Shown here piece after piece: positions 12,627 through 12,858 of a DNA stretch of 64,000 nucleotides. The position numbers and the translations under genes are program-made. The stretch is from an uncultured Gammaproteobacteria bacterium (GTDB taxonomy: Bacteria > Patescibacteriota > Patescibacteriia > Patescibacteriales > WJLG01). Under the pieces are notes generated by a model. The model searched no databases, was not told the origin of the DNA, and saw only the letters and a list, made by a program, of their open reading frames with translations. The DNA is taken from assembly GCA_964395625.1 (NCBI GenBank), contig CAYNAR010000007.1, positions 2,113 through 66,112 on the forward strand, read 5' to 3'. How positions within the stretch are numbered: position 1 is the stretch's first letter; each line of letters starts with the position of its first letter.

Positions 12627-12654
12627 TTGATTTAAATTTAAAATGATTTATTAT
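12627..12654 (+). promoter_or_regulatory. putative promoter of the pheA leader (TTGATT-16-TATTAT)
   Basis: TTGATT at 12627-12632 and TATTAT at 12649-12654. Confidence 0.45.
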
Positions 12655-12672
12655 GATTTGTAAGTTCAAGAT

Positions 12673-12738
12673 ATGAATATTGTCAAAGCCAACAATTTTT
12701 TCTTCGCTTTTTTCTTTGCCCCTAGGGGCAGGGGTTAA
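12673..12738 (+). CDS. Phe-rich leader peptide [21 protein letters not shown]
   Basis: Six Phe codons fall within seven consecutive codons (12697-12717). Located between a promoter and a terminator, directly upstream of pheA. Confidence 0.55.
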   Translation: [21 protein letters not shown]

Positions 12739-12771
12739 TTGGCTTTGATCAAATTGTCGCGTTCAAGCCTT

Positions 12772-12803
12772 CTGACCCCCGATGCGGTGGTCGGATTTTT
12801 TTT
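12772..12803 (+). terminator. attenuator terminator upstream of pheA
   Basis: CTGACC (12772-12777) pairs with GGTCGG (12789-12794), followed by T8 at 12796-12803. An alternative pairing, GGGGT 12731-12735 with ACCCC 12775-12779, overlaps the 5' arm. Confidence 0.55.
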
Positions 12804-12858
12804 AGCTCTTTATAATAAAATTCATAAAATTTAGTTCATTTAAAGAAGGGTGGTTTCT

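What the first reader, a model, noticed from the sequence alone, without database searches (positions are those of the whole stretch)
12627..12858. Classical Phe-codon leader-peptide attenuator in front of pheA
A 21-codon ORF (12673-12738) encodes [21 protein letters not shown], with six Phe in seven codons. The FFFAFFF core is identical to that of the E. coli pheA leader peptide ([15 protein letters not shown]).

The downstream pairings fit the stalled-versus-unstalled ribosome logic of enterobacterial attenuation:
- CCCCT (12719-12723) can pair with AGGGG (12730-12734).
- GGGGT (12731-12735) can alternatively pair with ACCCC (12775-12779).
- ACCCC overlaps the 5' arm of a terminator, CTGACC 12772-12777 / GGTCGG 12789-12794, followed by T8.

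A plausible promoter (TTGATT-16-TATTAT) lies upstream, and pheA starts 56 nt after the T-run.

Finding this mechanism outside Proteobacteria, in front of an apparently isolated prephenate dehydratase in a reduced genome, is unexpected. The terminator stem is short (6 bp with one G-U), which is the weak point.
Basis: partly seen in the sequence, partly recalled or inferred. Interest (0 to 1): 0.65.

Follow-up and report, generated by a model that had tools for sequence, protein, structure and literature searches.

The report
Phenylalanine-sensing leader-peptide attenuator in CPR bacteria
A 21-codon mini-gene packed with phenylalanine codons, followed by two mutually exclusive RNA hairpins, sits in front of a lone prephenate dehydratase gene of an ultrasmall (Patescibacteria/CPR) bacterium, and almost certainly switches that gene on when phenylalanine runs short, a textbook E. 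coli mechanism that I could not find reported for this group.

Summary
ORF 12673-12738 encodes [21 protein letters not shown]. It lies between a promoter-like site (12627-12654) and a terminator (12771-12795, -13 kcal/mol, then T8), upstream of a prephenate dehydratase gene (12859-13716).

- It is the only short ORF in 64 kb with at least 6 Phe in 7 codons (0.01 expected).
- Sixteen distinct orthologous loci (32-86% PheA identity), some from MAGs labelled Falkowbacteria, Paceibacterota or Patescibacteria, carry a Phe-rich leader ORF before the gene. All but three have a computed terminator.
- Leader DNA is better conserved than the pheA coding sequence.
- C residues in the Phe block fall at codon position 3 in 29 of 33 cases.
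- Terminator and antiterminator both show compensatory changes.
- Folding with a modelled ribosome gives the classical logic: the antiterminator (12731-37:12773-79 plus an inner hairpin) forms with the ribosome on Phe codons and is blocked at the stop codon.

The host is CPR by LigA similarity and gene content. No Rfam family reaches its threshold (Phe_leader 16.8 bits against 55), and I found no literature on attenuation in CPR.

Verdict: a genuine ribosome-mediated Phe attenuator, a new family of a known kind. Function is inferred, not shown.

The parts
12588..12617 (+). Terminator of the upstream transcription unit (12-bp stem followed by a T-run). It marks the 5' boundary of the pheA unit.
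   Evidence: Terminator scan; sequence.
12627..12654 (+). Sigma-70-like promoter, TTGATT (12627-32), 16 nt, TATTAT (12649-54). The inferred transcription start is near 12661-62, which leaves a 5' UTR of about 11 nt with no Shine-Dalgarno sequence.
   Evidence: Promoter scan, 9 of 12 matches. TTGAC[TA]-17-TA[TA][TA][AC]T is conserved at the same distance from the leader ATG in L005, L006, L009, L011 and L016; L003 also has TTGACT with a -10-like hexamer in the same place. The start site is an inference.
12673..12738 (+). Leader ORF (pheL-like), encoding [21 protein letters not shown] with stop codon UAA at 12736-38.
   Evidence: Unique in the window. Conserved in orthologues.
12697..12717 (+). 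Regulatory codons: TTT TTC TTC (12697-12705), GCT, then TTT TTC TTT (12709-12717). That is six Phe in seven codons.
   Evidence: C residues in pyrimidine-only codons of the Phe block fall at codon position 3 in 29 of 33 cases across 15 leaders.
12683..12692 (+). Segment A (codons 4-7), complementary to 12739-12748. This is a 10-bp inverted repeat that holds the 5' half of the antiterminator in the OFF state.
   Evidence: MFE fold. Exact repeat TTGGCTTTGA and its reverse complement. 94% of cells paired in alignment A4.
12692..12698 (+). Segment H0-5' (ACAAUUU, codons Asn7-Asn8-Phe9), which pairs with AAAUUGU at 12751-12757 in the loop of the inner antiterminator hairpin.
   Evidence: Seen in constrained folds. 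90.5% paired, with two pairs changed on both sides (U-A to C-G, and C-G to U-A), in the unfitted MAFFT alignment A4.
12713..12734 (+). Hairpin 1:2, UCUUUGCCC 12713-21 with GGGCAGGGG 12726-34. It ties the last Phe codons to the second G-run and has a 4-bp GC core at 12718-21/12726-29.
   Evidence: 94% paired, with one compensatory pair, in A4.
12731..12779 (+). Antiterminator. The outer helix is GGGGUUA 12731-37 (which overlaps the stop codon) with UGACCCC 12773-79. The inner hairpin is GGCUU 12741-45 with AAGCC 12765-69, plus GA 12747-48 with UC 12763-64.
   Evidence: the MFE once the leader 5' part is masked. 88% of cells paired, with 5 pairs changed on both sides, in the 10-sequence strand alignment.
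12771..12803 (+). Intrinsic terminator (attenuator). The stem is 12771-77:12789-95 plus 12779-81:12785-87, at -13.0 kcal/mol, followed by U8 at 12796-12803.
   Evidence: 94% paired, 5 of 9 pairs compensatory, and 0 of 500 shuffles reach the observed score.
12845..12853 (+). Shine-Dalgarno-like GAAGGGUGG of pheA.
   Evidence: Sequence. Similar purine-rich sites lie before pheA in the orthologues.
12859..13716 (+). pheA, a monofunctional prephenate dehydratase of 285 aa with a divergent ACT-like C-terminal domain.
   Evidence: PF00800 at E=1.2e-41. Full-length match to solved PDTs, 2qmx at 2e-24. Sub-threshold ACT match, 19.5 bits against a cutoff of 27.

Best explanation
This is a ribosome-mediated (leader-peptide) transcription attenuator that senses charged tRNA-Phe and controls a monofunctional prephenate dehydratase gene in a Patescibacteria (CPR) bacterium.

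Transcription and default state:
- Transcription starts about 11 nt before the leader AUG (inferred).
- With no ribosome on the leader, three ORF segments pair with the 5' half and loop of the antiterminator: 12683-92, 12692-98 and 12713-21 pair with 12739-48, 12751-57 and 12726-34.
- The terminator 12771-95 plus U8 then forms. The default state is OFF.

Phe plentiful:
- The ribosome runs to UAA at 12736-38.
- There it physically covers GGGGUUA 12731-37 and 12739-48, so the antiterminator cannot form.
- Transcription stops at 12796-12803.

Phe-tRNA scarce:
- The ribosome stalls in the FFFAFFF codons (12697-12717).
- Its footprint masks the three holding segments but leaves 12731-69 free.
- That region pairs with 12773-79 as soon as it is transcribed, which removes the terminator's 5' arm. 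RNA polymerase reads through into pheA.

Status of the steps:
- Shown by sequence and computation: the parts, their conservation, the covariation, and the ribosome-position-dependent folding.
- Inferred: the transcription start, translation of the leader, stalling, termination, and the physiological response.
For: 1. Anatomy. Promoter, a 21-codon ORF with 6 Phe in 7 codons, a terminator with U8, then pheA. The ORF is unique in the window, with 0.01 expected by chance.

2. Conservation.
- Phe-rich leader ORFs lie upstream of PDT orthologues in 16 distinct loci at 32-86% PheA identity. The genomic neighbourhoods differ.
- Hairpin plus T-run terminators were computed for 13 leaders in 12 of these loci. 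They were read by eye for L048. Automated detection failed for L017, L036 and L040.
- Examples: [85 protein letters not shown] (a Falkowbacteria MAG), MKRNKVNNFLFFFTGTTRVSWL.
- The same scan found none in the 11 loci that are labelled non-CPR or match at 34% PheA identity or less.

3. Selection. Leader nucleotide identity is 71-86%. That exceeds the pheA CDS (65-76%) and the spacer after the terminator (35-56%).

4. Reading frame. C falls at codon position 3 in 29 of 33 cases within the Phe block (p about 1e-10, not corrected for relatedness).

5. Covariation.
- Terminator: 94% paired, 5 of 9 pairs compensatory, 0 of 500 shuffles.
- Antiterminator: 88% paired, 5 double changes, slid controls 24-56%.
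- OFF-state helices: 90-94% paired, with compensatory pairs, in an unfitted MAFFT alignment.

6. Switch logic.
- On the transcript cut before the terminator's 3' arm, P(antiterminator) is 0.74 with the A-site on any codon up to Ala16. It is 0.00 from Pro17/Arg18 to the stop.
- On the full-length RNA at equilibrium, the terminator has P of at least 0.9 everywhere except with the A-site on Phe codons 12700-12703, or with a disome on the last Phe codons.
- The same high-at-Phe, low-at-stop pattern appears in 11 other leaders.
- Shuffled upstream sequences reach the observed switch in 3/100 (window), 0/100 (L047), 0/100 (L009) and 0/100 (L049).

7. Taxon. The best named LigA hits are all Patescibacteria, Falkowbacteria or Parcubacteria, at 56-69% identity, apart from one record labelled Candidatus Nanoarchaeia. 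Gene content fits CPR.
Against: - There is no experimental or transcript data. Translation of the leader, stalling and termination are all inferred.
- The leader AUG has no Shine-Dalgarno sequence, and the predicted 5' UTR is only about 11 nt.
- At full-length equilibrium the flip to the antiterminator needs a footprint of at least about 28 nt. It occurs at only one or two Phe codons, and a small footprint (-12/+10) never flips. The model therefore relies on kinetics, as the classical trp model does.
- The cross-subfamily strand alignment was built by hand from predicted pairings, so it leans towards the structure.
- Few independent sequences are available: 10 in the strand alignment, and 6 for the OFF-state helices.
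- A cruder switch metric was not significant for the window (24/150). L016 failed the equilibrium metric (25/100).
- L006 has two Phe-to-Ser changes. L003 has two mismatches in the A:D helix.
- Seven related PDT loci have no leader (L007, L012, L021, L032, L033, L037, L039).
- The two closest MAG records are titled Gammaproteobacteria.
Confidence: 0.85

Rival explanations
1. The ORF encodes a functional small hydrophobic peptide, such as a membrane peptide or toxin, with its own terminator. pheA is expressed independently or by leaky read-through.
For: The peptide is conserved in its N-terminal half in the close group (MNI[VI]KANN...). An Asn-Asn pair precedes the Phe run in many leaders.
Against: - Outside the Phe run the peptide differs completely between subgroups ([33 protein letters not shown]), and so do its length and C-terminus.
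- The 3' third of the ORF is constrained as RNA, through G-runs and pairing with the terminator arm.
- The conserved Asn codons lie in a covarying helix.
- The element is always immediately upstream of a PDT gene, on the same strand, whatever the surrounding genes.
- No promoter-like site lies between the terminator and pheA.
Confidence: 0.03
2. This is a translation-independent RNA switch. The pyrimidine tract and the alternative hairpins respond to a protein, to uncharged tRNA (as in a T-box) or to a metabolite, and the ORF is incidental.
For: The alternative structures exist irrespective of translation. No Shine-Dalgarno sequence precedes the leader AUG. In one subgroup the Phe-codon run is complementary to a purine-rich loop.
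Against: - T-to-C variation in the tract respects the reading frame, in 29 of 33 cases at position 3.
- The start codon, the frame, and the position of the stop codon inside the antiterminator's 5' strand are conserved across very different sequences.
- No T-box or other Rfam family reaches its threshold, either in the window or in 15 orthologous loci.
- No aptamer-sized conserved structure is present.
Confidence: 0.06
3. The element acts at another level, for example Rho-dependent polarity or control of pheA translation, or it is a constitutive partial terminator with no Phe sensing.
For: Termination efficiency and the Phe response are untested. Equilibrium folding favours the terminator in nearly all states.
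Against: - A GC-rich hairpin followed directly by U6-U8 is conserved in the 14 loci where a terminator could be identified, and its stem covaries in the 10 aligned sequences.
- The pheA ribosome-binding site lies 40-120 nt beyond the T-run in a poorly conserved spacer.
- A constitutive terminator would not need a conserved, covarying antiterminator, or a run of codons for the very amino acid whose biosynthetic step the gene encodes.
Confidence: 0.05
4. Chance: a T-rich intergenic stretch that happens to be open, next to an ordinary terminator.
For: AT-rich intergenic DNA often translates to Phe. A second weak Phe-rich mini-ORF exists at 21756-21791.
Against: Expected 0.01 per 64 kb for 6 of 7 Phe. 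The element recurs in 16 distinct orthologous loci, and the leader is better conserved than the coding sequence.
Confidence: 0.01

Closest known systems
Enterobacterial pheL-pheA attenuator (Rfam RF01859, Phe_leader; E. coli pheL [15 protein letters not shown])
   Same: - A short ORF with a run of Phe codons interrupted by Ala. The FFFAFFF core is identical, and L003 shares FFAFFFTF.
- C-rich codons just after the run pair with downstream G-runs.
- The 1:2, 2:3 and 3:4 logic, with an intrinsic terminator before pheA (PMC3082878).
   Different: - The Rfam model scores only 16.8 bits against a gathering score of 55.
- No orthologous leader reaches the threshold.
- The downstream gene is a monofunctional PDT, not the chorismate mutase/PDT fusion.
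- No Shine-Dalgarno sequence precedes the leader.
- The stop codon lies inside the antiterminator's 5' strand.
- Three ORF segments, rather than one, can hold the antiterminator.
- The host is Patescibacteria. The similarity is more likely convergent than inherited (inference).
E. coli trp operon attenuator (trpL), the classical model
   Same: Ribosome position on tandem regulatory codons selects between antiterminator and terminator. The terminator is the more stable structure, so the choice is kinetic. Termination is also the default when the leader is not translated.
   Different: It uses a different amino acid and a different sequence. The trp leader uses two Trp codons and a single 1:2 hairpin. 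The comparison rests on established knowledge and was not tested here.
Leader-peptide attenuators predicted outside Proteobacteria: Actinobacteria (PMC1262725), the His leader of Bacillus hisS/hisZ (PMC2965389), and possible pheL in Bacteroides and Desulfobacterium (PMC3082878)
   Same: The same kind of element in other phyla. These cases show that the mechanism is not confined to Proteobacteria.
   Different: None of them is from Patescibacteria/CPR, and no sequence relationship to them was tested or found. I found no paper that combines attenuation or leader peptides with CPR.
T-box riboswitches
   Same: They also sense tRNA charging and control a terminator/antiterminator choice upstream of amino-acid genes.
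   Different: A T-box binds tRNA directly and needs no translation. No T-box match was found here, and this element has a frame-constrained ORF instead.

Membership tests
Ribosome-mediated (leader-peptide) transcription attenuator | A short ORF in the 5' leader with clustered codons for the amino acid made by the downstream gene's pathway. | tested here: met
   The 21-codon ORF has 6 Phe in 7 codons and lies upstream of prephenate dehydratase. It is unique in the window.
Ribosome-mediated (leader-peptide) transcription attenuator | An intrinsic terminator between the leader ORF and the structural gene. | tested here: met
   Stem 12771-95 (-13.0 kcal/mol) followed by U8. The stem covaries in orthologues.
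Ribosome-mediated (leader-peptide) transcription attenuator | An antiterminator that shares a strand with the terminator, and whose formation depends on where the ribosome sits (regulatory codons or stop codon). | tested here: met
   Computed only. P(antiterminator) goes from 0.74 to 0.00. The equilibrium flips only at Phe codons. The same pattern appears in 11 other leaders. Shuffle controls give 0-3 of 100. Covariation is seen.
Ribosome-mediated (leader-peptide) transcription attenuator | The regulatory codons are conserved as codons (reading-frame constraint) in related genomes. | tested here: met
   Sixteen distinct loci have Phe-rich leaders. C falls at codon position 3 in 29 of 33 cases.
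Ribosome-mediated (leader-peptide) transcription attenuator | The leader is translated, and read-through rises when the cognate charged tRNA is limiting. | not testable with these tools
   This needs transcript 3'-end mapping, reporter assays or coupled in vitro assays.
Rfam RF01859 Phe_leader (gammaproteobacterial pheL RNA) | Covariance-model score at or above the gathering score of 55 bits. | tested here: not met
   The window scores 16.8 bits, E=4.5 in a 601-nt search. Nothing reaches the gathering score in the window or in 15 orthologous loci.
Rfam RF01859 Phe_leader (gammaproteobacterial pheL RNA) | Located upstream of a bifunctional chorismate mutase/prephenate dehydratase (P-protein) in Gammaproteobacteria. 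| tested here: not met
   The gene here has the PDT domain only, with an ACT-like tail. The host is CPR by LigA hits. The E. coli locus was used for comparison.
T-box leader | Match to the T-box covariance model (specifier loop and T-box sequence). | tested here: not met
   There is no T-box hit, even at E up to 10, in 12400-13000.

The most novel reading that the evidence does not exclude
This could be the founding example of a family of ribosome-mediated attenuators spread across several classes of Patescibacteria/CPR (MAGs labelled Falkowbacteria, Paceibacterota and others). It is absent from Rfam and from the searchable literature.

If real, it would show three things:
- These ultrasmall, host-dependent bacteria couple transcription to translation and monitor tRNA-Phe charging.
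- Their lone prephenate dehydratase is a genuine, starvation-induced step of phenylalanine supply, possibly salvage of externally derived prephenate.
- The attenuator may partly replace allosteric control, because the ESRP position of the ACT domain reads ATVF.
Probability: 0.55. Interest if true: 0.6.

Novelty: new member of a known kind. Interest (0 to 1): 0.55.

Why it matters
CPR/Patescibacteria make up a large share of bacterial diversity. They have tiny genomes, and very little is known about how they regulate genes.

- A conserved Phe attenuator would be a concrete, testable cis-regulatory sensor in this group. It implies coupled transcription and translation on a nearly leaderless mini-ORF.
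- It also serves as functional annotation by regulation. A gene switched on by Phe-tRNA shortage is very likely used to make phenylalanine.
- These organisms lack many typically essential pathways (PMC11665869). A starvation-induced PDT therefore points to a one- or two-step salvage route from prephenate or phenylpyruvate.
- The mechanism itself is textbook, so the value lies in the phylogenetic reach, the metabolic inference, and a new RNA family for annotation pipelines.

Tried and rejected
- **Rfam at gathering thresholds.** The window and 15 orthologous loci gave only tRNAs. Permissive Rfam on 12400-13000 gave Phe_leader at 16.8 bits, far below threshold, plus chance hits.
- **T-box or riboswitch reading.** No support.
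- **One MAFFT alignment of both leader subgroups (A2).** It misaligned the 3' strands of the antiterminator. I replaced it with a hand-built strand alignment, which is biased towards the structure. The OFF-state helices were therefore tested on an unfitted alignment (A4).
- **A crude switch metric** (terminator 5' arm paired with anything upstream). It was not significant for the window (24/150), because weak alternative pairings count towards it. I replaced it with P(terminator) on the full-length RNA. On that metric L016 fails (25/100), although it passed the truncated metric (1/150).
- **Automatic terminator detection.** It failed for L017, L036, L038b, L040 and L018. Their hairpins were judged by eye only, and L018 is counted as doubtful.
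- **Search for other leader-peptide candidates in the window.** Nothing convincing.
- **Naming the organism.** Exact-sequence look-up returned no organism names.
- **Upstream RNA-like element in L003 and L005.** No family match, and absent from the window.
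Full report
**1. The observation**

- ATG 12673 opens a 21-codon frame, ATG AAT ATT GTC AAA GCC AAC AAT TTT TTC TTC GCT TTT TTC TTT GCC CCT AGG GGC AGG GGT TAA. 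It encodes [21 protein letters not shown].
- Upstream lies TTGATT-16-TATTAT (12627-12654), which the consensus scan also reports.
- Just before that is a strong terminator for the preceding genes (12588-12617). The element therefore heads its own transcription unit.
- Downstream lies a hairpin followed by T8 (12796-12803).
- 56 nt after the T-run, behind an SD-like GAAGGGUGG, an ORF starts at ATG 12859. Its product is a prephenate dehydratase (PF00800, E=1.2e-41).
- That protein matches solved PDTs over its full length (2qmx, 2e-24).

The Phe-rich ORF is not a by-product of AT-rich DNA.
- It is the only short ORF on either strand of the 64-kb window with at least 6 Phe in 7 codons.
- Markov simulations expect 0.01 such ORFs.

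**2. Whose genome it is**

- The window encodes a NAD-dependent DNA ligase. Its best named relatives (56-69% identity) are Patescibacteria group, Falkowbacteria, Parcubacteria or Magasanikbacteria, apart from one record labelled Candidatus Nanoarchaeia.
- Gene content fits CPR. It includes a T4SS-pilin-domain giant protein, GatA, pyruvate formate-lyase and ADP-forming acetyl-CoA synthetase. Many ORFs have no Pfam match.
- The nearest named relatives of the PDT itself are from MAGs labelled Falkowbacteria, Paceibacterota, Uhrbacteria and Saccharibacteria.
- The two closest MAG records are titled 'uncultured Gammaproteobacteria'. I regard this as a mislabel but could not settle it with marker phylogeny.

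**3. Comparative evidence**

I fetched DNA around PDT relatives from assemblies, one genome per species, and metagenomes.

A Phe-rich leader ORF lies in front of the gene in 16 distinct loci.
- A hairpin with a T-run was computed for 13 leaders in 12 of these loci.
- For L048 it was read by eye.
- Automated detection failed for L017, L036 and L040.

A close group resembles the window:

| Locus | PheA identity to window | Leader peptide |
|---|---|---|
| L005 / L014 / L028 | 86% | [21 protein letters not shown] |
| L006 | 84% | [21 protein letters not shown] |
| L047 | 65% | [22 protein letters not shown] |
| L048 | 61% | partial |
| L003 | 59% | [21 protein letters not shown] |

A second group:

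| Locus | PheA identity to window | Leader peptide |
|---|---|---|
| L049 | 52% | MKRNKVNNFLFFFTGTTRVSWL |
| L009 | 51% | [20 protein letters not shown] |
| L011 | 44% | MKKILKRNSFFFFFTFKD |
| L016 (Falkowbacteria MAG) | 40% | [22 protein letters not shown] |

More distant forms:

| Locus | Leader peptide |
|---|---|
| L029 | [18 protein letters not shown] |
| L017 (Paceibacterota MAG) and L036 | ...NFWFSF...QTPSLGIFRL |
| L038 | two tandem copies |
| L024 (Patescibacteria group MAG) | MWFCFNFFTPSSRGNFLIKS |
| L040 | not listed here |

L018 (Uhrbacteria) is doubtful.

Negative results and context:
- Seven related loci have no leader (L007, L012, L021, L032, L033, L037, L039).
- None of the 11 loci that are labelled non-CPR or match at 34% PheA identity or less was flagged by the same scan.
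- The genes around the leader-pheA unit differ between loci. Examples are YebC-RuvC, tRNA genes, MgtE, HPr and glycosyltransferases. None belongs to aromatic amino-acid synthesis.

**4. Signs of selection**

- Against the window, leader DNA from ATG to T-run is 71-86% identical. The pheA coding sequence is 65-76% identical. The spacer between T-run and pheA is 35-56% identical.
- Within the Phe block, C occurs at codon position 3 in 29 of 33 cases across 15 leaders.
- That pattern is expected for TTY codons that are read as such, and not for a mere pyrimidine tract. The test ignores relatedness.

**5. Structures**

The unconstrained fold of 12660-12810 is -42.9 kcal/mol, z = -2.3. It contains:
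- a long-range helix, 12683-92 with 12739-48, which is an exact 10-nt inverted repeat;
- a hairpin, 12713-21 with 12726-34;
- the terminator, 12771-77:12789-95 plus 12779-81:12785-87, at -13.0 kcal/mol.

When the transcript is cut before the terminator's 3' arm, the favoured fold is an antiterminator.
- GGGGUUA 12731-37, which includes the first two bases of the stop codon, pairs with UGACCCC 12773-79.
- This helix stacks on the hairpin GGCUU-GA / UC-AAGCC (12741-48 / 12763-69).

When the leader's 5' part is simply removed, the antiterminator is the MFE even with the whole terminator present. This holds in the window, L047, L048, L049, L009 and L016.

A third pairing, ACAAUUU 12692-98 with AAAUUGU 12751-57, links the Asn-Asn-Phe codons to the loop of the inner hairpin.

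**6. Ribosome-position test**

I masked a footprint from 15 nt before to 12 nt after the first base of the A-site codon. This footprint is my assumption.

On the truncated transcript:
- P(antiterminator) is 0.74 for every A-site position up to Ala16.
- It is 0.00 from Pro17/Arg18 to the stop codon.

On the full-length RNA at equilibrium:
- The terminator has P of at least 0.9 at every position except the A-site on Phe codons 12700-12703, where P(term) falls to 0.08-0.16 depending on the footprint, and 0.10 with the -15/+12 footprint.
- The exception extends to the last Phe codons if a second ribosome queues behind.
- With no ribosome, P(terminator) is 0.98.
- A small footprint (-12/+10) never flips. 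As in the trp paradigm, the decision must therefore be largely kinetic.

In other leaders:
- The same high-at-Phe, low-at-stop pattern is seen in L003, L005, L006, L047, L049, L009, L011, L016, L029, L024 and L038a. These have quite different terminator sequences.

Shuffle control of the region upstream of the terminator:
- The observed switch is reached in 3/100 (window), 0/100 (L047), 0/100 (L009) and 0/100 (L049).
- L016 fails this metric (25/100) but passes the truncated one (1/150).

**7. Covariation**

The second group shares the core GGUUAGCUUUGAU...AUCAAGC with the window's GGUUAAUUGGCUUUGAU...UUCAAGCC. The antiterminators are therefore homologous.

In a strand alignment of 10 leaders (built by hand, with loops replaced by linkers):
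- Terminator: 94% paired, 5 of 9 pairs changed on both sides, and no shuffle of 500 reaches the observed score.
- Antiterminator: 88% paired, 5 such pairs, against 24-56% when partners are slid.
- The shared strand changes together with both of its partners. At one position it goes from A to G, and the terminator partner goes from U to C.

In the unfitted MAFFT alignment of the six close leaders:
- The three OFF-state helices are 90-94% paired.
- They show compensatory pairs, for example U-A to C-G and C-G to U-A in 12692-98:12751-57.
- Sequence numbers are small, so these figures are supportive rather than decisive.

**8. Mechanism proposed**

- **Default.** With no ribosome on the leader, the ORF segments 12683-92, 12692-98 and 12713-21 hold the 5' half and loop of the antiterminator. 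The terminator then forms.
- **Phe replete.** The ribosome reaches UAA and covers 12731-48, so the terminator forms.
- **Phe-tRNA limiting.** The ribosome stalls on 12697-12717. It masks the holding segments and leaves 12731-69 free to capture 12773-79. RNA polymerase reads into pheA.

Inferred steps are the transcription start (about 12661), initiation on a short SD-less leader, the stalling itself, and termination efficiency.

**9. Comparison with known systems**

- The logic is that of the enterobacterial pheL-pheA and trp attenuators (PMC3082878).
- The resemblance to E. coli pheL extends to the FFFAFFF core and to C-rich codons pairing with downstream G-runs.
- The Rfam Phe_leader model scores 16.8 bits against a threshold of 55, and no orthologue passes.
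- The downstream enzyme is not the chorismate mutase fusion.
- It therefore works like pheL but is not a member of that RNA family. Convergence is the simpler reading.
- Leader-peptide attenuators outside Proteobacteria are already on record: Actinobacteria (PMC1262725), Bacillus His leaders (PMC2965389), and possible pheL in Bacteroides and Desulfobacterium (PMC3082878). The phylum alone is therefore not a shock.
- I found no paper linking attenuation or leader peptides, or prephenate dehydratase, to CPR/Patescibacteria.

**10. Side inference on the enzyme**

- The C-terminal ~85 residues align with the ACT regulatory domain of solved PDTs.
- They match Pfam ACT models only below threshold.
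- The position of the ESRP motif reads ATVF.
- Loss of Phe feedback, with regulation shifted to the attenuator, is a speculation only.

**11. Verdict**

This is a real and well-supported ribosome-mediated Phe attenuator. It is a new family of a known kind, and I could not find it described in CPR bacteria. Its main interest is what it says about regulation and phenylalanine supply in these reduced genomes.

Noticed in passing
L003 3610-3770; L005 1043-1200; L006 1-60; L047 1-70: A conserved GC-rich stretch that looks structured (ggggagYggagcgatcc...) lies just upstream of the leader promoter in four orthologous loci. It ends in its own strong terminator (cgggggagagatttttctcccccgttttttt). No Rfam family matches it, and it is absent from the window. 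It may be an unannotated small RNA.
   Followed up: partly
L038 1020-1147 and 1316-1450: Two tandem leader-like ORFs lie upstream of one PDT gene: MNAQAARNNFWFSFFFGQTPSLGI and MNCYRAIFNFRFFINQAQNLGIFHL. Each is followed by a hairpin and T-run. They are separated by a GC-rich stretch (1150-1290) with a tRNA-like T-arm sequence that ARAGORN does not call.
   Followed up: partly
L014 (CAZPAK010000036.1) and L015 (CAZJPG010000003.1): The two MAG records closest to the window are titled 'uncultured Gammaproteobacteria bacterium'. Yet the window's LigA, its PDT relatives and its gene content all point to Patescibacteria. This is probably a taxonomic mislabel in the public records.
   Followed up: partly
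window 13420-13716 (C-terminal domain of PheA): The regulatory ACT-like domain is divergent. It matches Pfam ACT only below threshold. The position aligned with the ESRP motif of solved prephenate dehydratases reads ATVF. This raises the question of whether Phe feedback inhibition is retained.
   Followed up: partly
L009 1599-1682, L011 2706-2789, L016 2086-2167: In the second leader subgroup, a long-arm tRNA gene on the opposite strand sits directly upstream of the leader promoter, and several more tRNA genes lie downstream of pheA. The tRNA-leader-pheA synteny is conserved.
   Followed up: no
window 1-10000: Composition changes sharply. GC is 47-51% over the ADP-forming acetyl-CoA synthetase and pyruvate formate-lyase genes (1-6000). 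It falls to 32-37% over a reverse-transcriptase ORF (6948-8180) and an IS200-like Y1 transposase ORF (8793-9659). This suggests a mobile-element insertion zone.
   Followed up: no
window 21756-21791: A second, much weaker Phe-rich mini-ORF (GTG start, VFFFLFFRSVD) lies in a T-rich intergenic region about 210 nt upstream of an ABC transporter gene (22002-23765). It has no obvious terminator or antiterminator and was not checked in relatives. It is probably chance.
   Followed up: no
window 31921-40728: Two very large adjacent ORFs (990 and 1940 aa). The first has a T4SS-pilin-like N-terminus and a Big_5 domain. Such giant surface proteins are typical of CPR.
   Followed up: no
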